64,000 nt of DNA from an uncultured archaeon (GCA_964486045.1 CAZALK010000005.1:32001-96000); one strand, 5' to 3'; positions 14,725 to 24,752 are shown, counted from the stretch's first letter. The notes: generated by a model not told the origin, from the letters alone. Numbers and translations are program-made.

Positions 14725-17700
14725 TTAATTAGTTAATTGTAATAATTCTCTTAATTTTTTATCATTTAAATCAGAAATCCAAGATTCTCCAGTAGATTGG
14801 ATAATTTTATCAGTTAATTCTAGCTTTTCCAACAACAAAAAGTCGATTTTCTCTTCAATGGTTCCATTAGTAATGAATTTATATACATTTACTGCGGATT
14901 TTTGACCTATTCTATAGGCTCTATCAGTGGCTTGGTTTTCAACTGCTGGATTCCACCATCTATCAAAGTGAATAACCGTTGTTCCTTGGGTTAGATTTAA
15001 ACCAGTTCCCCCAGCTTTTAAGGATAAAATTAATATTGGGGGACTCTCTAAATCGTCTAATTGAAACTCATCAACAATTTCTCTTCTCTTTTTTTCCGGT
15101 ATACCCCCGTGAAAATATAATATCTTGAAATCATACTTAAATTCCAAAATTTTTAACAAAATATTTCCCATTTGAGTAAATTGGGTAAAAATCAAGGCTT
15201 TTTCTCCATTTGAGATAACTTCTTCAGTCATTTCGAGCAATCTCTCCAATTTGTGTGATTGTGAAATAATTTCTTTCATTTTTAACCCATCTTTTATAGA
15301 TGTCATTTCAATTTTAAGATATTGATAAGGATGATTACAAATTTGCTTTAATTTGACTATTAATCCTAAAATCAACCCCCGCTTCTTCCTTTTATCAGAA
15401 GATTCATCTTCAATCTCTTTCAAGGTTTTTTCTACAAGTTCTTGATATAATTTTACTTGGGTTTTGCTTAATTCGATGAGGATTTTCATTTCATTTTTTT
15501 CAGGCAAATCTTTTATTATAGTCTTGTCTGATTTGAGGCGACGCATGATAAAAGGAGCAGTAATTACCTTTAATTTATCAATAACTTCTTGATTTTGAAA
15601 TCGTTCAATTGGTAAGATATACTCATTTTGAAACTCCACTTTGCTTCCTAAAAGACCCGGATTTAAAAAGTTAAAAAGTGACCATAGCTCTAGTAATCGA
15701 TTTTCTATTGGAGTACCACTTAAACAGATTTTATATTGACTTTTTAATTTGTCTATTGCTTGTGTTTGTTTAGAAGCGTAATTTTTCATATTTTGACTCT
15801 CATCGATGATAATTCCACTAAAATCAATTGTTTCTAGAAAGTCAATATCATTTCTTATTGTTCCATAAGATGTTAGAAAAATTCGATGTGGTTTTAAAAA
15901 TTCTGGAATTTTAAAGACTTCTTTTATGCGTTTAGTTCCATGATGAATTATTATTTCTAAATCAGGGGCGAATTTTTTAAACTCTCGGTGCCAATTAAAT
16001 AGTATTGAAGTAGGACAGACAATTAAAACACCTCCGGGATTATTTGGGTATGTTTCTTTGAGATAGAGCAAAAAGGCTATAATTTGAATTGTTTTCCCAA
16101 GTCCCATATCATCAGCCAAACATAATCCAAAATTGAATTTTGTCATGTTTACCATCCACGTAAGTGCCGTTTGTTGATAAGGACGTAATTTGCCGTTAAA
16201 TGATGATGGGCAAGGAATTTGTTCAAAAACATCTATTGATTGAATTCTCTCAATAATTCCTTTTAATTCTCCCTCAACTAGTACATCATATTCATTTCCA
16301 TTTTCTCGAAGTTGAATTTTTCCAGTCAATCCAAGTTTTAGAGCATCCATGTAACTTTTCGTTTCAGATTCTTTAATATTTTTTAAATCTTCTACATCTT
16401 GTTGATCAACTAAAATCCATTTTCCTCTTACATTAATCAAAGATTCCTTAGAGTTAATCAAATTATTAAGTTCTTCTTCCATAAGTTTCTTTCCTTCAAG
16501 TCCAATCTCCCATTTATATTCTAGCATCGAATTAAAGTTAAATATTGATGGTAAAACCGAAGATTTCCCTCTTTTTATCTCTTTATGATCTTTTGAACGA
16601 ATGATTAATCTGGCAGATAAACGTTGTCTTCCACCTCTTATAAATACTTCAGGAAGAACGATGTTATACCCACTTTGAATTAATAAATCTTTTGGGTATT
16701 TTAAAAAATCTAACACCTCGCTTGTTGTGAGATTAATTTTGTGTTGAATTTTTTCTAAAAAAACTCTTTTAATAGGTGGAAATATTTTTGATGCTGCACT
16801 CAATGCTCTTAGAATTATTTCTATAAAATGTTCGTCGTCGTCAAAAAGTTTTAGAAATTCTTTTTGTTTTATTTCGTTTCCTTTCCAGAGGTCATTTAAA
16901 GGGATCGTTATAGCACCATCTTGTAATGACAGATAAAATAATAAAATCCAATCATCTTCCGGCTTTTTTGGATATTGTAATTCTATGTTAAAGGCAAATT
17001 CGTGTTTAAGTGTAAATCCTTGAGCAGATTGAGTCCAATTTTTAATTAAGGTAGGTAAAATTGTTTCAGAAAATTCTTCTACATTAAACTTAGGATCTTC
17101 TCTGATAAGAGCTTTAAGAAATTTATAATCCCATCCCAATTTAAAATCTAAATCTTGCTCCTTTTTAATTTCAGAACTATAAAATTCTTTAAAAGTTTGA
17201 AATTTACTTTTGCTTAGAGTAGAACGGATTAAAGAATCTCCAACATTATTTAAGAAGATTGAAAAAATATAGGATGGGTGCCAAAGACCATTTGATTTAA
17301 TCTTTCCATTTTCACGTAAAAAATTTATAGGAAGACAAAAAGAAGGCCAAGAACTAGTACTTAATATTGTTTTAAAACGATATCGATCATTCTGGGATTT
17401 TAGTAATAAGTGCCATTGACCAATATACCTGTTAGCTGTTATTGATTCTAATGCAGGAACGAATTGACCTTTATTTAATAATTCAAATATTAATTTCGTA
17501 AGAAAAGCCCATGTTATAATAGAATTACTAAAATGTGTCAGACTTCGATCTAAGCTTTCCATTATTTCCAATTGGTATAATAATTTCACTGCAGGTGTTA
17601 TAGGTATAATTTTTCCTATGTGAATCAATATTTTAAAAAATTTTCCGGAAGATACTTTGTTTGTTGTAGATTCTGATAAGTGAAAAGGAACAGCAAGGTT

Positions 17701-17922
17701 AATATTGCAAGTTAAAAGTTTTTTTGCTGGAATTGTTGGAAACTTCTGTTTAATATATTCAATTAGTTTTTCTTCTGATTTATTTGATGGAATCCACAAA
17801 ATGAAAAAATTAGAGTTTTTTGGAAGCTGCTTTCCCTCTGAGGTTAATTTAAATCTACTTAATGGTTCATTCCAATATTTTGACGGAATGTAGGTTAACT
17901 CTAGTTTACTAAGTTGTTTCAT
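14725..17922 (-). CDS. SNF2-family helicase
   Basis: LRPYQ, LADDMGLGKT, IIDESQNMKN, SGTPIEN, LKAGGTGLNL, WWNPAVENQATDRAYRIGQ. Confidence 0.95.
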   Translation of the reverse strand: MKQLSKLELTYIPSKYWNEPLSRFKLTSEGKQLPKNSNFFILWIPSNKSEEKLIEYIKQKFPTIPAKKLLTCNINLAVPFHLSESTTNKVSSGKFFKILIHIGKIIPITPAVKLLYQLEIMESLDRSLTHFSNSIITWAFLTKLIFELLNKGQFVPALESITANRYIGQWHLLLKSQNDRYRFKTILSTSSWPSFCLPINFLRENGKIKSNGLWHPSYIFSIFLNNVGDSLIRSTLSKSKFQTFKEFYSSEIKKEQDLDFKLGWDYKFLKALIREDPKFNVEEFSETILPTLIKNWTQSAQGFTLKHEFAFNIELQYPKKPEDDWILLFYLSLQDGAITIPLNDLWKGNEIKQKEFLKLFDDDEHFIEIILRALSAASKIFPPIKRVFLEKIQHKINLTTSEVLDFLKYPKDLLIQSGYNIVLPEVFIRGGRQRLSARLIIRSKDHKEIKRGKSSVLPSIFNFNSMLEYKWEIGLEGKKLMEEELNNLINSKESLINVRGKWILVDQQDVEDLKNIKESETKSYMDALKLGLTGKIQLRENGNEYDVLVEGELKGIIERIQSIDVFEQIPCPSSFNGKLRPYQQTALTWMVNMTKFNFGLCLADDMGLGKTIQIIAFLLYLKETYPNNPGGVLIVCPTSILFNWHREFKKFAPDLEIIIHHGTKRIKEVFKIPEFLKPHRIFLTSYGTIRNDIDFLETIDFSGIIIDESQNMKNYASKQTQAIDKLKSQYKICLSGTPIENRLLELWSLFNFLNPGLLGSKVEFQNEYILPIERFQNQEVIDKLKVITAPFIMRRLKSDKTIIKDLPEKNEMKILIELSKTQVKLYQELVEKTLKEIEDESSDKRKKRGLILGLIVKLKQICNHPYQYLKIEMTSIKDGLKMKEIISQSHKLERLLEMTEEVISNGEKALIFTQFTQMGNILLKILEFKYDFKILYFHGGIPEKKRREIVDEFQLDDLESPPILILSLKAGGTGLNLTQGTTVIHFDRWWNPAVENQATDRAYRIGQKSAVNVYKFITNGTIEEKIDFLLLEKLELTDKIIQSTGESWISDLNDKKLRELLQLTN

Positions 17923-18720: not shown

Positions 18721-19989
18721 TTATGTTCCGTCTTCATAGCCATGGATGTAGTTATATTGCTCCTCTGTTAGCTTGTCGATCTTTACACCCATTGCTTGTA
18801 ATTTTAGAAAGCCAACCCTATCATCGATTTCAATAGGTACATTAACCATCCCAGGCTTTAGACTGTCCTTATTTTTCACAATATACTCTGACATAAGAGA
18901 TTGCAAACCAAATGACATGTCCATTACTTCTGCTGGATGCCCTTCTGATAACACCAAATTCGCTAAACGACCCTTAGCCAGAATATAAATCTTTTTACCA
19001 CCGGGAAAGATGAGTTCTTCTACGTTACTTCTAATTGGGTTAATTTCTTTAGCATACTCATATAATTCTTTAGTTGGGATTTCAATATCAAAATGACCTA
19101 AATTTCCCAAAATAACTCCGTCTTTTAGAGCATCAAAATTTTCTTTTGTAGGCAGTATTACGTGCTTACAACCAGTAGCAGTTAGGATAATTTCTGCTGT
19201 TGGTAAGGTCTCTGCTATAGGTTTCACATTAAATCCCGCAAACTTAGCTTGAAGGGCTTTTATTGGATCTATTTCTGTTACAGTAACATTAGCACCTAAA
19301 CCTCTGGCTCTAAGTGCCATTCCTCCAGAACAATGTCCATAGCCCGCAATTACAACATTTTTTCCTGCGAAGAGTACATGCATTCCATAGATTGCAGCTA
19401 CAATACCTTGTCCTGTACCTAATTCATTATCAAATTGGTTTTTGCATCGTGCATCATTTACAGGGAAAAGTGGTACTTTTAAATCTCCAGCCTTATCCAT
19501 TGCTTTAAATCGCTTTACGCCAGTTGTTGTTTCTTCTTGACACCCTATAATTACACCGTCAGTAATTAATTCGGGAAACTCTTTATGAGCTGTAACGATC
19601 ATATCAGCCCCGTCATCAATGAGGATATTAGGTTTAGCTTTTAAACACTCACGAATACACCAATAAAATTCTCCATCTGTATTGCCGTGCCATGCAAAAG
19701 TATTGATATCTTCCTTTACTAAGGCGGCAGCTACATCGTCTTGAGTGGATAACGGATTGCTACCACATAACCAAACATCAGCACCACCTGCTTTTAAGGT
19801 TCGCGCTAAATTTGCAGTTTCTTTAGTAATATGTAAGCATCCTGCAATAGTTATACCTTCTAAAGGCTTTTCCTTTGCGAAACGCTTCCGAATAACCTTA
19901 GCAGTCACCGGCATCTTGATTTCCGCAACATATATCGATTCTAATCCTTTTTCTGCTAAACTTTCATCAGCAACTTTAAAATTTACCAT
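18721..19989 (-). CDS. ahcY: Adenosylhomocysteinase
   Basis: GCLHITKETA, SNPLSTQDDVAAAL, QEETTTG, GHFDIEI, EGHPAEVMDMSF. Confidence 0.98.
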   Translation of the reverse strand: MVNFKVADESLAEKGLESIYVAEIKMPVTAKVIRKRFAKEKPLEGITIAGCLHITKETANLARTLKAGGADVWLCGSNPLSTQDDVAAALVKEDINTFAWHGNTDGEFYWCIRECLKAKPNILIDDGADMIVTAHKEFPELITDGVIIGCQEETTTGVKRFKAMDKAGDLKVPLFPVNDARCKNQFDNELGTGQGIVAAIYGMHVLFAGKNVVIAGYGHCSGGMALRARGLGANVTVTEIDPIKALQAKFAGFNVKPIAETLPTAEIILTATGCKHVILPTKENFDALKDGVILGNLGHFDIEIPTKELYEYAKEINPIRSNVEELIFPGGKKIYILAKGRLANLVLSEGHPAEVMDMSFGLQSLMSEYIVKNKDSLKPGMVNVPIEIDDRVGFLKLQAMGVKIDKLTEEQYNYIHGYEDGT

Positions 19990-20126
19990 TAGAATTCACT
20001 TTTTGATTTTTAAGAATATTAATTTTAATTAATTAATAAAACTTTTTTTGGTAAAAAGCAAATATTCATATATTAAATTTAACATTTGATTAATAGTAAA
20101 TCAAAAATCTGAAAAATTGTAATAAG

Positions 20127-21425
20127 ATGAGATATATTAGAGATCAGTTAGAAGCTCAACGTTTTATAAAGAATTTAAGTGGTAAAACCAAATTTATTAT
20201 TTCAAGAAATTCACGAGCTATAGGGCTTTCTAGACAAACATATCAAAACAAACTTGACCGTTTGAGAGATCAACAAATAATTACCAATTTTACCATTAAT
20301 ATTAATCCAAGTCTTCATCCAAATAATCTGAAATATGTAATGCTTGAAATCAAAACCAACCCTCAAGAACCGGAATTGGTGAAAAATCTATTAGAAATAC
20401 CTCATTTAAGAATGTTGGATGGGATTATTGGAGATTTTTCTTTATTCGCCTTATTTATCTTTAATTCCCCTGAAGAATATTACCAGATATTAAATACGAT
20501 TGATAAAATAATGTCTAAATCATATTTTAAAAAATATCAAATAATTGACACCATTAAGGTTTTTAAAACAAATGGGATTAGTCTTAAGAACTCAAAAATG
20601 TCTATTGAAGAAGCTCTTCTTCAAAAACTTTTAGATCAATTAATTGATAAAATAAAAGAAAAACAAGTCTATGAAAGCGAAAATATAATAATAGAAATTT
20701 CAGAAAGAATTGATTTAAATCAAATTGCTCAAAACAATGCAGATATTGAGTATAATCCCGAGAGATTCCCAGGGATTGTAATTAGAATTGAAAATCACCC
20801 CACAACAATTTTAATCTTCTCAAATGGCAAAATGGTTGTGAATGGTTTAAAGAATGCAACAGAAGCAGAGCTCGTTACAGATAAAATAATTGAAATTAGA
20901 AATAAAATTGGATTAAAATTAGATAAAAGAAACAAAGGCTTAAATTTTGAATTAGACAGTATTGATTTTAATATTTTAAAAATATTACGAGATGGTCAAG
21001 GGCTAAAACCAATATCTACTTATGAAATACGCAAAATATTTGAGGAAAAACTTAAAATAGAAATTTCTCAATCAACTATTCATAACAGAATTAAAAAACT
21101 TGAAAGAGAAAGCATTATCTTAAATTATAATGTAAATTTTAATCCAAAAAAAATTGGTTTTAAAGGAAAATATCTCCTTCGAATTAAACCAAAAGATCCT
21201 TCAAAGTACAATGAGCTTGCGTTAAGGTTGGATATGAATAAAAATATAACTGATTTATTTCGAATAGGTGAACAATATGGACTTTTCGCTATAGTAAGAG
21301 TAAAAAAAATTGAAGATTATGCGATTTTTATCAAGGATTTATATAACTCGGATGAAATCGAGGATACTTATACAAATTTTGTATTGGATGAGTTAATTTC
21401 TTACACTAATTTTATAATATCATAG
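20127..21425 (+). CDS. Tandem Lrp/AsnC regulator with inserted single TBP-like repeat
   Basis: Two wHTH+RAM units (GLSRQTYQNKLDRL; LDSIDFNILKIL..SQSTIHNRIKKLE) flank IDLNQIA..EYNPERFPGIVIR..ILIFSNGKMVVNG. Confidence 0.85.
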   Translation: MRYIRDQLEAQRFIKNLSGKTKFIISRNSRAIGLSRQTYQNKLDRLRDQQIITNFTININPSLHPNNLKYVMLEIKTNPQEPELVKNLLEIPHLRMLDGIIGDFSLFALFIFNSPEEYYQILNTIDKIMSKSYFKKYQIIDTIKVFKTNGISLKNSKMSIEEALLQKLLDQLIDKIKEKQVYESENIIIEISERIDLNQIAQNNADIEYNPERFPGIVIRIENHPTTILIFSNGKMVVNGLKNATEAELVTDKIIEIRNKIGLKLDKRNKGLNFELDSIDFNILKILRDGQGLKPISTYEIRKIFEEKLKIEISQSTIHNRIKKLERESIILNYNVNFNPKKIGFKGKYLLRIKPKDPSKYNELALRLDMNKNITDLFRIGEQYGLFAIVRVKKIEDYAIFIKDLYNSDEIEDTYTNFVLDELISYTNFIIS

Positions 21426-21583: not shown

Positions 21584-23665
21584 ATGAGCAATTTTTTTGA
21601 ACTCTTGGAAAATAGAATTGGTTTTTCAAGAATTGGTAGGATAAATTTATCTAAAGAGAGGAAACTCTATATAAGGACACCAAATGTCACTATTCCAATT
21701 AAGAATGTCTTGATGAAACAGTTTAGCTTCATACAAGAATTTGAAAATCACGACTTATTCATTATATCAAAAGAAATTTTCTTGAAGATAGGTTTTCTTA
21801 GAGAAAAATTCAAAAATACTGGTTTTATTTTTTCCAATCCAGGTACATTTGAAAAATACGAGAAGATTTTAAGAAAAAATGAAGAAATTTTTACCAAAGA
21901 TAATGTTTTATCGATTATCCCTTTCAATTTTCCCTCAACAGCAATAGGAATAGATTTTGCAAGAAGAGAAGTCAGGTTTTATCTTTCTAATGCTACCAAA
22001 ATATTAAAAACTTATTCTAAAATTAATTTTGGTTTATCAATTAGGCTTTATGGTTATTCAGAGTTAATTCACCTTTATATTCCAACAATTAAGGAGTACG
22101 AAAATATAAAAATCCTAAATTTAGTTGATCTATTTGATAATTTCAACAATTTCAGGAATATTATTAACATTCTTGTTGAAATCAAAACACAATTGGATAA
22201 TAATATAGTTATCATGGCTTCTGGGAAAATAATTCCTAAATATTATCCTATATTAGTATATTTGGGGATAGATTTAATTGATTCCTCCTTTTTATTATAC
22301 AAGTCGGCTGAAAATTTGTATGATACCATCGAGTATTTTCTTCCAAGATATAAAGTTAAATATTTGCCTTGTTCTTGCGTTGCATGCAAAGGAAATTTGA
22401 AAAACCTTGTTAGTTCTAGATATTCAAGCGAAATGTTAGATTTACTTTGCTTACATAACCTAATTGTAGCCCTTAATTACATGATGAAAATCAAACAATA
22501 CTTACGTTATGAAGATTATAGGGGATTCGTTGAAAAGTCATCTCTTGATGATATTGCCTTAATTTCAATGTTAAAAATCTTGGATAAAGATTACTTTAAT
22601 CTTATTCGGTTTGAAACACCTATCTCCCAAAAAAATAAAAAGATTAATTGCCTAGGACCTTCTTCATATAATCGACCAGATTTTAGAGAATTTAGGCAAA
22701 GATCGGTTAAAAGTTTTGAACCAGAACCATGGACCACTATGATTATTGTATTACCTTGTTCTGCTAAAAAACCTTATTCATTATCAAAATCACATAAATT
22801 TTTTCATAGTGTACTTAGAAAGTTTCGCGAATTTGCAAATTTTCAAGAAATTATTCTAACATCCCCACTTGGAGCTATTCCGAGACAATTAGAGAACGTA
22901 TATCCAGTTAACTCATATGATATATCTGTAACTGGTGATTGGGATGACGCTGAAAAAGAAATAACGTCAGAAATGTTACACCAAATTGTAACAAAATATA
23001 ATGAAAATATTCCAATAATTTGCCATCTTGAGGGTGATTACCTTGATATCGCTGATATAGTTAATTCTAAATTACCGCATAATTTTTATTTTACAAAAGT
23101 TAATGGGAAAGTGACCTCTAAAGAATCTCTTAAATCACTTGAATCATTAGTAAAGCAGCATATAAGTGATTTTAGATCTTTAAAACCATTACCTGAAGGT
23201 AATTATTTATCTAATACTTGGATTAGAAAATTAATAAAAATATTAGATTATCAATTTGGTGAGGGATCAGGATTGAATATTATTAGAAACGAATTAGCTC
23301 CCCTCAAATTTAATTCTAATTCACAAATTAATTTGATTGATTTAATATCTAAAGAAAAAATAGGAGTCTTCAAAACTCTATCAGGTCAAATATGTTTGAC
23401 AATACAAGGTTTGAAAAGAATGGTTCAATCACCGTTTTCTATTGATTCAAATATTATCGTTTTTGATGGGCAAGAAATTCAGGGTAACAATCTATTTCGG
23501 CAAGGTATTTTAGATTTCAGCTCAGATTTGATCTCTAATAATTATGCTATCATTATTGATAAAGAAAAAAAGGAGATAATTGGAACCGGGAAACTAATTG
23601 TAGGCTCAAATTTTATAAAAAATTCTAAAACAGGAAGGATTGCTGAAATTAATGAAAAAAAATAG
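21584..23665 (+). CDS. arcS: Archaeosine synthase subunit ArcS (TGT-like + DUF5591 + PUA)
   Basis: CSCVAC..HNL, LPCSAKKPYSLSKSH, LTSPLGAIPRQLE..YP...YDISVTGDW, DYQFG; adjacent to RaSEA. Confidence 0.9.
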   Translation: MSNFFELLENRIGFSRIGRINLSKERKLYIRTPNVTIPIKNVLMKQFSFIQEFENHDLFIISKEIFLKIGFLREKFKNTGFIFSNPGTFEKYEKILRKNEEIFTKDNVLSIIPFNFPSTAIGIDFARREVRFYLSNATKILKTYSKINFGLSIRLYGYSELIHLYIPTIKEYENIKILNLVDLFDNFNNFRNIINILVEIKTQLDNNIVIMASGKIIPKYYPILVYLGIDLIDSSFLLYKSAENLYDTIEYFLPRYKVKYLPCSCVACKGNLKNLVSSRYSSEMLDLLCLHNLIVALNYMMKIKQYLRYEDYRGFVEKSSLDDIALISMLKILDKDYFNLIRFETPISQKNKKINCLGPSSYNRPDFREFRQRSVKSFEPEPWTTMIIVLPCSAKKPYSLSKSHKFFHSVLRKFREFANFQEIILTSPLGAIPRQLENVYPVNSYDISVTGDWDDAEKEITSEMLHQIVTKYNENIPIICHLEGDYLDIADIVNSKLPHNFYFTKVNGKVTSKESLKSLESLVKQHISDFRSLKPLPEGNYLSNTWIRKLIKILDYQFGEGSGLNIIRNELAPLKFNSNSQINLIDLISKEKIGVFKTLSGQICLTIQGLKRMVQSPFSIDSNIIVFDGQEIQGNNLFRQGILDFSSDLISNNYAIIIDKEKKEIIGTGKLIVGSNFIKNSKTGRIAEINEKK

Positions 23666-24752
23666 CATTACTGACGATTACAAAACAAAAATCTCTGAGA
23701 AAATAAAGTCTATAAGACTAAGGTCTTTGAACAAAAGGAAAAGAATTAGCAGAAAAGATCTTGATCGTCCTGTAAGTTTTTGGATTAAAAAAGACAGACT
23801 TGTCAATGAAGTTGGGAAAGAATTAACTATTATTCTAAGAACAAAAGGATGTAGTTGGGCTTTAGGTGAAACTGGAGGATGTTCTATGTGTGGTTATGTT
23901 CAAGATGCGAATATTGAAGAAGTTAATCAAAATCATATTCGAAATCAAATTGATTTTGTTTTAAACAACAAAATTAAGGAAATTTCAGAAGCTAATGAAA
24001 ATTTTGTAATAAAAATATTCAATTCAGGGAGTTTTTTTGATGAGAACGAGATTTCTGAAGAAACTAAACAATACATTTATGAAAAGGTAGCAAACATTGA
24101 TAATTTAAAAGAATTCATTATAGAGAGTCGACCAGAATTCATAAAATCTGAAAATCTTAAGGAATTAAAAGATTATCTAAAAGGAAAGTACGTAGAAATT
24201 GCAATAGGACTTGAGACTGTTAATGATTATATCAGAAATTATTACATAAACAAGGGAATGACATATGAAGATTTTATAAATGTATTTAAAATTTGTAAAG
24301 ATAATAGAATGGGTGTAAAAGCTTATTTATTGCTTAAACCTCCATTTCTTAATGAGGCAGGAGCAATAGATGATTGTGTAAATTCTATTAAAAATTTAGT
24401 TAAGTTAAAAGTCAATACAATATCTATTAACCCTCTAAATATCCAGAGAGGAACTCTAGCAGAGTACTTATGGTACAATAATAAATATCGCCCTCCTTGG
24501 TTTCATTCACTTTTTAAAGTTATAAAAAAATCAATATCTCAAAATGACCTTTTAAATGTAAGACTATTATCTGATCCTTCTGGAGCTGGAACAAAAAGAG
24601 GTATTCATAATTGTTTAAAAAGGGAATGTGAAAAAGCCGCTAAAAGAAGTCTACAAAAATTTGTATTCTCTCAAGAATTAGGTACATTAGACAATAATAA
24701 CTTTGAATGCGAGTGTAAAAGAAAATATCAGCTTCAAAAACATTTATATTAA
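23652..24752 (+). CDS. Archaeosine biosynthesis radical SAM enzyme RaSEA
   Basis: ILRTKGCSWA..GGCSMCGY, KIFNSGSFFD, ESRPEF, KAYLLLKPPFL, YRPPW, GIHNC; overlaps the arcS stop. Confidence 0.92.
   Translation: MKKNSITDDYKTKISEKIKSIRLRSLNKRKRISRKDLDRPVSFWIKKDRLVNEVGKELTIILRTKGCSWALGETGGCSMCGYVQDANIEEVNQNHIRNQIDFVLNNKIKEISEANENFVIKIFNSGSFFDENEISEETKQYIYEKVANIDNLKEFIIESRPEFIKSENLKELKDYLKGKYVEIAIGLETVNDYIRNYYINKGMTYEDFINVFKICKDNRMGVKAYLLLKPPFLNEAGAIDDCVNSIKNLVKLKVNTISINPLNIQRGTLAEYLWYNNKYRPPWFHSLFKVIKKSISQNDLLNVRLLSDPSGAGTKRGIHNCLKRECEKAAKRSLQKFVFSQELGTLDNNNFECECKRKYQLQKHLY

What the first reader, a model, noticed from the sequence alone, without database searches (positions are those of the whole stretch)
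20127..21425. Lrp/AsnC-TBP fusion: a gene-specific regulator carrying half a TATA-binding protein
Seen: the architecture is [wHTH-RAM]-[TBP repeat]-[wHTH-RAM]. The insert (~20690-20915) reads IDLNQIAQ..EYNPERFPGIVIRIENHPTTILIFSNGKMVVNGLKNATEAE. This matches the TBP repeat consensus (YEPEQFPGLVYR..P...LIFxSGKxVxTG) and keeps both DNA-intercalating Phe positions. Known: TBP needs two such repeats to form its saddle; Lrp proteins oligomerise; the archaeal Lrp-type activator Ptr2 works by recruiting TBP. Inference: oligomerisation could assemble a ligand-controlled, sequence-targeted TBP saddle, or the half-TBP could block or mimic TBP, making a regulator and basal factor in one chain. The gene is divergent from ahcY across a 137-bp gap, so a SAH/Met-responsive switch is plausible; tfb lies ~4 kb downstream.
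Basis: partly seen in the sequence, partly recalled or inferred. Interest (0 to 1): 0.9.

Follow-up and report, generated by a model that had tools for sequence, protein, structure and literature searches.

The report
Asgard ahcY regulator carrying half a TBP
In one family of Asgard archaea, the gene-specific regulator next to the SAH-hydrolase gene has captured the first half of the cell's own TATA-binding protein; selection keeps the half, but it has been cleanly deleted several times, so it is most likely an optional add-on that touches promoter DNA, not a private basal transcription factor.

Summary
ORF 20127-21425 (432 aa) is a single-chain tandem Lrp/AsnC regulator (two wHTH-RAM modules) with one TBP repeat (PF00352, 67 bits against a cut-off of 22.9) in the connector between the modules. 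It is not a chimera: more than 80 protein clusters from independent assemblies carry the same insert.

The insert is 58% identical to the N-terminal lobe of this genome's TBP1. It arose once inside one GTDB family and was cleanly lost at least twice. It is under purifying selection (dN/dS 0.15-0.36; flanks 0.08-0.14).

The host regulator lies divergent to ahcY in 22/22 loci of the family and in 6/6 distant Asgard relatives, so it is probably the dedicated ahcY regulator and autoregulator.

The insert keeps both intercalating Phe positions and the outer half-saddle. It has lost the central part of strand S1 and the stirrup tip, and it lacks the C-lobe glutamate pair that docks TFB. That argues against a self-assembled, TFB-recruiting "private TBP". 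It fits a tethered, dispensable DNA- or promoter-contact module.

The same lobe is also optional on a longin-domain protein family.

This scan met orthologs in other genomes before, and earlier follow-ups reached similar conclusions. No published description was found. Mechanism remains inferred.

The parts
18721..19989 (-). ahcY (S-adenosyl-L-homocysteine hydrolase), divergently transcribed; probable regulatory target
   Evidence: Pfam AdoHcyase 201 bits plus AdoHcyase_NAD 144 bits. Divergent neighbour of the regulator in 22/22 loci of the family and in 6/6 distant relatives.
19990..20126 (.). 137-bp divergent control region, strongly conserved among orthologous loci
   Evidence: Alignment of 12 loci shows long invariant blocks. 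The insert-less L014 keeps the same region.
20029..20051 (-). Inferred ahcY core promoter: TATA-like element (reverse complement TTTTATTAATTAA) preceded by a BRE-like A-run (reverse complement CCAAAAAAAG)
   Evidence: Read from the sequence; the block is conserved. The assignment as BRE/TATA is an inference from the archaeal promoter consensus and has not been mapped.
20048..20056 (+). Conserved element 1 (TTGGTAAAA; family consensus TTGGTTAAA), candidate operator half
   Evidence: Paired with element 2 at a fixed 31-bp offset in 16/23 loci, against about 1 in shuffles. The composite site is essentially unique in the genome.
20062..20077 (+). Inferred TATA-like element of the regulator's own promoter (ATATTCATATATTAAA), bracketed by elements 1 and 2
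   Evidence: Conserved GCAAATATT(T/C)ATATA block. The promoter assignment is inferred.
20079..20089 (+). Conserved element 2 (TTAACATTTGA; family consensus TTAACATTTAA), candidate operator half
20110..20123 (+). Conserved block TGAAAAATTGTAAT just upstream of the ATG (consensus TTG[C/T]AAAATTGTAAT)
   Evidence: Its function is unknown; it could be a further operator or a leader element.
20127..21425 (+). Tandem Lrp/AsnC regulator with an inserted TBP N-type lobe (432 aa plus stop)
20127..20576 (+). Lrp module 1 (aa 1-150): diverged wHTH plus RAM domain
   Evidence: No Pfam hit. Internal duplication with E 7e-6. AF2 pLDDT is about 77-94, with HTH helices 2-17, 25-31 and 36-48 and a beta-alpha-beta-beta-alpha-beta fold at 69-148. 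The recognition-helix residues S35, R36, Q37 and T38 are nearly invariant.
20595..20936 (+). The insert (aa 157-270), absent from the insert-less orthologs
   Evidence: Alignments A1 and A2. Flanked by low-confidence hinges at aa 155-158 and 262-273.
20604..20660 (+). Spacer helix (aa 160-178) ahead of the TBP lobe; missing in the short (87-92 aa) insert variants
   Evidence: AF2 helix H160-178. Gapped in the short-insert members.
20682..20909 (+). TBP N-type lobe (aa 186-261): truncated S1, then H1, S2, stirrup, S3, S4 and H2
   Evidence: PF00352 at 67-69 bits. 58% identity to the TBP1 N-lobe. Aligns to the N-lobes of 1MP9, 1PCZ and 1AIS. dN/dS 0.15-0.36.
20946..21422 (+). Lrp module 2 (aa 274-432): wHTH plus RAM domain

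Best explanation
The gene encodes a single-chain pseudo-dimer of two Lrp/AsnC modules. It is the dedicated, probably metabolite-sensing regulator of the divergent ahcY gene and of its own promoter. That role is ancient in Asgard archaea.

In one GTDB family, a copy of the N-terminal lobe of the cell's own TBP1 was inserted once into the short connector between RAM domain 1 and wHTH 2. There it sits on flexible hinges close to the DNA-binding face.

The lobe is kept by selection but is dispensable. Most likely it acts as a tethered half-saddle that contacts AT-rich or TATA DNA next to the operator. This would add affinity or a kink, or partly occlude one of the two back-to-back TATA boxes, and so tune regulation. 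It is unlikely to rebuild a TFB-recruiting TBP.

Shown: the architecture, the origin of the lobe, the selection on it, its gain and losses, the synteny, and which residues are retained or lost.

Inferred: ahcY as the target, the promoter and operator assignments, DNA contact by the lobe, and the effect on transcription.
For: Architecture.

Origin: 58% identity over 88 aa to the TBP1 N-lobe (E 8e-36), against 34% to the C-lobe. In the repeat-level tree the nearest neighbour is the TBP1 N-lobe.

One copy per genome, always at the same syntenic locus, with or without the insert.

Single gain and later losses: the insert clade has support 0.88. Nested losses have support 0.99 and 0.96.

Purifying selection on the lobe: dN/dS 0.15-0.36, against 0.08-0.14 for the flanks.

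Outer half-saddle retained: F214 in 87/87, P215 in 86, G216 in 83, K/R213 in 84/87, K/R220 in 73/87, F231 in 77/87, G234 in 87/87, K/R235 in 82/87. The convex helix H2 is the most variable part.

No TFB-docking signature: position 210 is Asn/Asp and position 212 is only 57% Glu, where the C-lobe has a conserved Glu pair (PMC7221094).

Local regulator: ahcY is divergent in 22/22 and 6/6 loci. The control region is conserved, and its composite site is essentially unique in the genome.

Precedent: archaeal Lrp activators bind next to BRE/TATA and act through TBP (PMC2995911).
Against: No experiment and no expression data were available.

The central half of S1, which carries the Asn/Val minor-groove contacts, is lost. 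Acidic residues (E188 in 46/87, E190 in 49/87) sit in alternating positions of the remaining strand, inferred to be its concave side. This weakens a DNA-binding reading.

The same lobe is also attached, optionally, to a longin-domain protein family, and once to a Ras-like GTPase. These are not DNA-binding hosts. That could point to a protein-protein or dimerisation role instead.

Insert-less orthologs keep the same control region, so no DNA element specific to the lobe has been identified.

The lobe's pLDDT is only 66-83.
Confidence: 0.5

Rival explanations
1. Split-TBP saddle. Two regulator chains bound at the two conserved elements that bracket the regulator's own TATA box bring their lobes together. 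The lobes form an N-N pseudo-TBP on that TATA box. The result would be a promoter-specific, ligand-gated TBP surrogate, or a TATA-blocking anti-TBP.
For: Two conserved elements lie 31 bp apart (about three helical turns) on either side of a TATA-like block. Lrp dimers are known to bind at a spacing of two to three turns (PMC2995911). All hosts of the lobe (Lrp, longin, small GTPase) belong to protein classes that work as dimers (plus general knowledge). Both intercalating Phe positions are kept.
Against: The first half of the central strand S1 is lost in the inserts. In canonical TBP that part adjoins the other lobe and contacts the central base pairs (established TBP structure, from knowledge). 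The host is already a covalent pseudo-dimer carrying a single lobe. An N-N saddle would lack the C-lobe glutamate pair used to dock TFB. The insert is dispensable.
Confidence: 0.17
2. Protein-interaction module. The lobe is a portable handle that binds a protein partner and does not contact DNA. The partner could be full-length TBP, another half-TBP protein, or an unknown factor. The handle would link different host proteins (the Lrp regulator, the longin protein, a GTPase) to the same partner, or act as a TBP decoy.
Against: The convex helix H2 and the stirrup tip, the usual protein-contact surfaces of TBP, are the least conserved parts of the insert. The best-kept residues are the DNA-contact set of the outer half-saddle, including the invariant F214. 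This genome has no other half-TBP protein to pair with: 5 repeats in all, as 2+2+1. The Ras fusion is a singleton at a contig end.
Confidence: 0.2
3. A passenger domain with no function of its own: a tolerated insertion in a permissive linker that is slowly being lost.
For: It has been deleted cleanly at least twice with no visible change in the flanks or the control region. It evolves 2-3 times faster than the flanks.
Against: dN/dS is 0.15-0.36 in all ten pairs tested. The reading frame and fold-core residues are kept in 87 clusters at 60-88% overall identity. Exposed outer-saddle residues, not only the fold core, are conserved.
Confidence: 0.06
4. Assembly chimera or frameshift artefact joining an Lrp gene to a TBP fragment.
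For: None found.
Against: The same architecture is found in more than 80 protein clusters from NCBI, JGI, ENA and Logan assemblies, and in 9 other species genomes of the family at the same syntenic locus.
Confidence: 0.01

Closest known systems
Archaeal Lrp/AsnC (feast/famine) regulators: FL11/PH1519 (2CYY, 2E1C), P. furiosus LrpA (1I1G), and the TBP-recruiting activators Ptr2, LysM and Ss-LrpB
   Different: Two modules are fused in one chain, and the first has diverged beyond Pfam detection. A TBP lobe is covalently built into the connector, which is not described for any Lrp protein in the literature searched.
Canonical archaeal TATA-binding protein (this genome's TBP1 on contig C1; 1MP9, 1PCZ, 1AIS)
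   Same: The insert is a true TBP repeat: 58% identical to the TBP1 N-lobe, with both intercalating Phe positions and the outer half-saddle basic and hydrophobic residues.
   Different: There is one lobe, not two. The first half of S1, the stirrup tip, the H2 surface and the N-P link to lobe 2 are not conserved. The C-lobe Glu pair for TFB is missing. The lobe is variable, whereas the TBP1 N-lobe is almost invariant across 18 genomes.
NirDL / AhbAB siroheme decarboxylase (4CH7)
   Different: It is an enzyme with only 12% identity. The NCBIfam AhbA score is 20.5 bits against a cut-off of 140. It has no TBP lobe and its gene context differs.
Monopartite TBP-domain proteins of Euryarchaea, halobacterial TbpA, and the RNase HIII N-domain (Brindefalk et al. 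2013, PMC3597702)
   Same: They are precedents that a single TBP-fold domain can be functional on its own or as a fusion partner that binds double-stranded nucleic acid.
   Different: Those are free-standing proteins of about 90-96 aa that are only distantly related to TBP, or ancient fusions to nucleases or glycosylases. Here the lobe is a recent copy of the lineage's own TBP1 N-lobe, embedded inside a transcription regulator.

Membership tests
Lrp/AsnC (FFRP) transcription regulators | N-terminal winged helix-turn-helix DNA-binding domain (PF13404 / PF13412) | tested here: met
   C-module: HTH_24 scores 23.5 bits (cut-off 21.9) at aa 311-331. N-module: no Pfam hit, but AF2 gives a three-helix wHTH, and the recognition-helix residues are nearly invariant.
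Lrp/AsnC (FFRP) transcription regulators | C-terminal RAM (beta-alpha-beta-beta-alpha-beta) effector/oligomerisation domain (PF01037) | tested here: met
   [not shown]
Lrp/AsnC (FFRP) transcription regulators | Sequence-specific DNA binding, and a response to a small-molecule effector | not testable with these tools
   Only indirect evidence: a conserved control region and a strict ahcY linkage.
TATA-binding protein (TBP) | Two tandem TBP repeats forming a pseudo-symmetric saddle in one chain | tested here: not met
   The protein has one PF00352 repeat only. The genome's true TBPs have two each.
TATA-binding protein (TBP) | TBP-repeat fold and sequence signature with the intercalating Phe pair | tested here: met
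   PF00352 scores 67-69 bits. F214 is kept in 87/87 and F231 in 77/87 orthologs. AF2 gives the element order S1-H1-S2-S3-S4-H2.
TATA-binding protein (TBP) | C-lobe acidic pair (Y-E-P-E) that docks TFB/TFIIB (PMC7221094) | tested here: not met
   The lobe is of the N type. Position 210 is Asn in 67 and Asp in 14 of 87 sequences. Position 212 is Glu in 50 and Lys in 15 of 87.
TATA-binding protein (TBP) | Full-length central strand S1 with the conserved Asn/Val minor-groove contacts | tested here: not met
   KIENVVA is invariant in 18 TBP1 N-lobes, but in the inserts it is replaced by variable or gapped sequence.
TATA-binding protein (TBP) | TATA-box binding and bending; support of transcription initiation | not testable with these tools
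   Needs EMSA, footprinting and in vitro transcription.
Monopartite TBP-domain proteins (Brindefalk 2013) | A free-standing protein of about 90-96 aa consisting of one TBP domain, only distantly related to the host's TBP | tested here: not met
   The lobe is embedded in a 432-aa regulator and is 58% identical to the host TBP1 N-lobe. A solo 88-aa lobe does exist in a relative, G132.
Siroheme decarboxylase NirDL/AhbAB | Sequence membership (NCBIfam AhbA/AhbB equivalogs) | tested here: not met
   AhbA scores 20.5 bits against a cut-off of 140, and AhbB 16.2 against 125. Only the fused-tandem fold is shared.

The most novel reading that the evidence does not exclude
The TBP1 N-lobe has become a portable module in this Lokiarchaeial family. 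It is attached optionally to dimer-forming signalling proteins: the metabolite-sensing Lrp regulator, a longin-domain (GTPase-regulator-type) protein, and possibly a Ras-like GTPase. When two host molecules come together, two lobes pair into a TBP-like saddle on a TATA box. Host dimerisation, driven by ligand or GTPase state, would then directly create or block a basal-factor site. At this locus the pairing would occur over the TATA box that lies between the two conserved operator elements.
Probability: 0.12. Interest if true: 0.9.

Novelty: new variant of a known kind. Interest (0 to 1): 0.62.

Why it matters
Archaeal gene regulation joins bacterial-type regulators to a eukaryote-type basal machinery, and how the two communicate is known for only a few cases, such as Ptr2 recruiting TBP. 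Here evolution has welded a piece of the basal factor onto a gene-specific regulator, in the archaeal group closest to eukaryotes.

Nature has also supplied controls. Orthologs with and without the lobe sit on the same promoter in sister lineages, so the lobe's contribution can be tested directly with recombinant proteins.

The locus is also a living example of a functional single TBP lobe that is recently derived from a two-lobed TBP. That bears on how TBP itself arose by duplication.

The strict and ancient pairing of the tandem Lrp with ahcY also nominates a regulator of the methyl cycle (SAH recycling) in Asgard archaea.

Tried and rejected
- Complex prediction on two copies of the insert (aa 156-272, with alignment): score 0.22 against a mark of 0.42. 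This gives no verdict and is evidence neither for nor against pairing.
The chimera question was settled by independent assemblies instead.
- Pfam on aa 1-160 alone gave nothing. The module was established by internal alignment and by the fold.
- Two treekit (IQ-TREE) runs on the enlarged flank alignment returned no answer. FastTree LG+gamma was used instead, so the supports are SH-like only.
- Literature searches for an Lrp-TBP fusion or a half-TBP in Asgard archaea found nothing relevant.
- P0184, P0200 and P0257, which looked like single-lobe TBPs, are truncated or frameshifted canonical TBP1 fragments.
- I considered that the insert-less form is a paralog in the same genome. This was rejected: there is one copy per genome, always at the same locus.
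- I considered that insert-less genomes carry the lobe as a separate gene. This was not found in general.
- My first tree suggested that the insert was ancestral. That was an artefact of sampling only close relatives, and searches corrected it.

Full report
**1. The observation**

Window 20127-21425 (+) is an open frame of 432 aa.
- Pfam finds one TBP repeat (PF00352, aa 190-257, E 1.3e-18, 67.1 bits against a cut-off of 22.9).
- It also finds a C-terminal Lrp module: HTH_24 at aa 311-331 and the AsnC RAM domain at aa 356-421, 37.7 bits.
- NCBIfam gives the same picture. There are partial matches to TBP models over one lobe only, and matches to LysM, AsnC and Lrp over the C-terminal module.
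- The N-terminal 160 aa give no Pfam hit on their own. They do align to the C-module (27% identity over 91 aa, E 7e-6).
- AlphaFold2 was run with a 101-sequence alignment (mean pLDDT 84, pTM 0.71). It folds the N-terminal part confidently as a wHTH plus a beta-alpha-beta-beta-alpha-beta RAM domain.

Between the two modules the model shows three things:
- a low-confidence hinge (aa 155-158), followed by a helix (aa 160-178);
- a TBP-type S1-H1-S2-S3-S4-H2 unit (aa 186-261, pLDDT 66-83);
- a second hinge (aa 262-273).

Structure comparison agrees.

**2. Not an artefact, and a defined family**

A search of 5.8 billion proteins found 475 relatives. Among the best 120, 87 carry the insert at 60-88% identity and 33 lack it. 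They come from NCBI, JGI, ENA and Logan assemblies labelled Lokiarchaeia or Promethearchaeota.

In a sample of 151 genomes of the phylum, close relatives (at least about 50% identity in the flanks) occur only in the window's own GTDB family, in 25 of 25 genomes. Each genome has exactly one copy, with an open frame of either about 420-435 aa or about 312-335 aa. This genome has one copy and two ordinary two-lobed TBP genes.

**3. Context**

- In 22 of 22 loci of the family, the gene lies divergent to ahcY across 130-165 bp, whether or not the insert is present.
- A TGT/DUF5591 (ArcS-like) gene and a radical-SAM gene usually follow, then Gar1 and TFB in some loci.
- Six distant tandem-Lrp relatives (30-39% identity, three other families of the phylum) are also divergent neighbours of ahcY.

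The pairing is therefore much older than the insert. It marks the tandem Lrp as the probable dedicated regulator of ahcY and of itself. This is an inference from conserved divergent gene order and from the usual behaviour of Lrp regulators (PMC2995911).

The 137-bp control region is strongly conserved. By comparison with the archaeal promoter consensus, I read it as two back-to-back core promoters. Two short elements (consensus TTGGTTAAA and TTAACATTTAA) lie at a fixed 31-bp offset and bracket the regulator's own TATA-like block. They are present in 16 of 23 loci, against about 1 in shuffles. The loci are related, so this shows conservation, not independent recurrence. The composite pattern is essentially unique in the 5.2-Mb genome (4 hits against 2 for the reversed control, and only this hit has an AT-rich centre). 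That fits a local regulator.

**4. Origin and history of the insert**

- The insert is 58% identical over 88 aa to the N-terminal lobe of this genome's TBP1 (E 8e-36). It is 34-42% identical to the other three lobes.
- In a repeat-level tree its nearest neighbour is the TBP1 N-lobe, and the inserts group together. Support is weak because there are only 87 columns.
- A tree of the flanks, with the insert columns removed, was rooted on tandem Lrps from other families. The basal lineages of the family are all insert-less.
- The insert-bearing proteins form one derived clade (SH-like support 0.88). Its sister is an insert-less pair (0.98).
- Insert-less forms are nested inside the insert clade at three places, with supports 0.99, 0.96 and 0.57.

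This means one gain and at least two clean secondary losses. One of those losses is in the closest relatives of this window's protein.

Genera g1 and g4 each have members both in the basal grade and in the insert clade. Every genome has one copy at the same locus. This suggests that the allele, together with its control region, replaced the resident one between genera. I did not test that against a species tree.

**5. What was kept and what was lost**

- The TBP1 N-lobe is almost invariant across 18 genomes of the family, whereas the insert has diverged.
- dN/dS for the lobe is 0.15-0.36 in ten pairs, against 0.08-0.14 for the flanks. That is purifying selection, but 2-3 times more relaxed.
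- Kept: the fold core and the outer half of the saddle. F214 is in 87/87 sequences, P215 in 86, G216 in 83, K/R213 in 84, K/R220 in 73, F231 in 77, G234 in 87 and K/R235 in 82.
- Lost or unconstrained:
  - the first half of the central strand S1 (KIENVVA), which in canonical TBP carries the Asn/Val that contact the central base pairs and adjoins the other lobe (established structural knowledge);
  - the stirrup tip;
  - R54 of helix H1;
  - the surface of helix H2;
  - the N-P link to lobe 2.
- The two glutamates of the C-lobe motif Y-E-P-E dock TFB/TFIIB and are conserved across archaea and eukaryotes (PMC7221094). The insert has Asn/Asp at the first position (210) and Glu in only 57% at the second (212).

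**6. Mechanism**

The connector in the insert-less orthologs is only about six residues long. The insertion point therefore lies right at the N-terminus of wHTH 2, near the DNA-binding face. With two hinges and a 19-residue helix, the lobe can plausibly reach DNA flanking the operator (inference).

Taken together, the evidence best fits an accessory, tethered half-saddle. It would add a minor-groove grip or kink, or partly occlude one of the adjacent TATA boxes, and so tune a regulator that also works without it (confidence about 0.5 for the composite statement).

Four points count against it: the N-lobe type, the missing TFB signature, the truncated S1 and the dispensability.

The spacing of the two operator elements around a TATA block is the one feature that would suit a paired-lobe model (about 0.17).

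A protein-interaction role (about 0.2) gains weight from the other hosts of the lobe, described next.

**7. The lobe is reused elsewhere**

In the same family of archaea, a lobe nearest to the TBP1 N-lobe also occurs in three other contexts.
- It forms the C-terminal domain of a protein of about 320 aa (P0230 family; G071 in locus L035). About 57 clusters carry it, and many relatives of about 220 aa at 52-77% identity lack it.
- It occurs as a solo 88-aa protein in G132.
- It occurs once fused to a Ras-family GTPase (Ras 100 bits). That case is a singleton at a contig end and needs confirmation.

So the lobe is an optional module on at least two unrelated host families.

**8. Comparison with what is known, and novelty**

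- The protein is a member of the Lrp/AsnC family by domain content. It is not a TBP: it has one lobe, no TFB signature and a truncated S1.
- It resembles NirDL only in being a fused tandem.
- Single-lobe TBP-fold proteins are known (PMC3597702), but those are free-standing and distant from TBP, or are ancient nuclease or glycosylase fusions.
- I found no paper describing an Lrp-TBP fusion. Public annotations call the protein an 'Lrp/AsnC ligand binding domain-containing protein'.
- This scan has met orthologs in other genomes several times. Earlier follow-ups also concluded that the fusion is real and conserved, and that the lobe is optional. My tests agree.
- My tests add four points:
  - the deep ahcY linkage outside the family;
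  - the ancestral insert-less state, with one gain and later losses;
  - the lobe-by-lobe account of kept and lost residues, including the TFB signature;
  - the longin identity of the second host.
- I rate the finding a new variant of a known kind, with interest about 0.6.

**Limits**

There are no expression or read-level data and no biochemical evidence. The homodimer prediction gave no verdict. The tree supports are SH-like only. The promoter and operator assignments are inferred from conservation and consensus.

Noticed in passing
[not shown]
   Followed up: yes
L037:3-725 (-) (G132 contig C29, at the contig end): One TBP N-type lobe (73 bits) fused to a Ras-family small GTPase (100 bits). 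It is partial and was found in a single MAG only, so it needs confirmation before any weight is put on it.
   Followed up: partly
L036:1086-1352 (-) (G132 contig C1): A free-standing 88-aa protein consisting of a single TBP repeat (PF00352, 75 bits) with an intact S1 strand. It lies next to a small zinc-ribbon-like ORF.
   Followed up: partly
L038-L043 (G038, G044, G094, G028, G053, G070): Distant tandem Lrp/AsnC proteins (30-39% identity, three other GTDB families of the phylum) are all divergent neighbours of ahcY. This suggests an ancient, undescribed regulator-ahcY pair across Asgard archaea.
   Followed up: partly
window 21584-24752: A TGT/DUF5591 protein (693 aa, ArcS-like) is followed by a radical-SAM protein (370 aa) whose start overlaps the first gene's end by 26 nt. 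From my own knowledge this looks like an ArcS-RaSEA-type archaeosine pair. Both follow the regulator in most orthologous loci, so the neighbourhood groups SAM/SAH-related genes.
   Followed up: partly
family f1 genomes, genera g1 and g4 (L015-L034): The gene tree of the regulator disagrees with genus labels. Genera g1 and g4 have members both in the basal insert-less grade and in the insert clade, always as one copy at the same locus and each with its own type of control region. This suggests replacement of the regulator-plus-operator cassette between genera.
   Followed up: partly
window 14725-17922 (-): A 1065-aa SNF2-family helicase with DUF3670 lies upstream of ahcY. It is not conserved in the orthologous neighbourhoods examined.
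   Followed up: no
G000 contig C20 (L010:1150-1767): The genome's second TBP (205 aa) is much more divergent than TBP1. Its Pfam scores are 63-68 bits per lobe against 97-100 for TBP1, and it has Y-D-K-N-S-F-P-G in the N-lobe.
   Followed up: no
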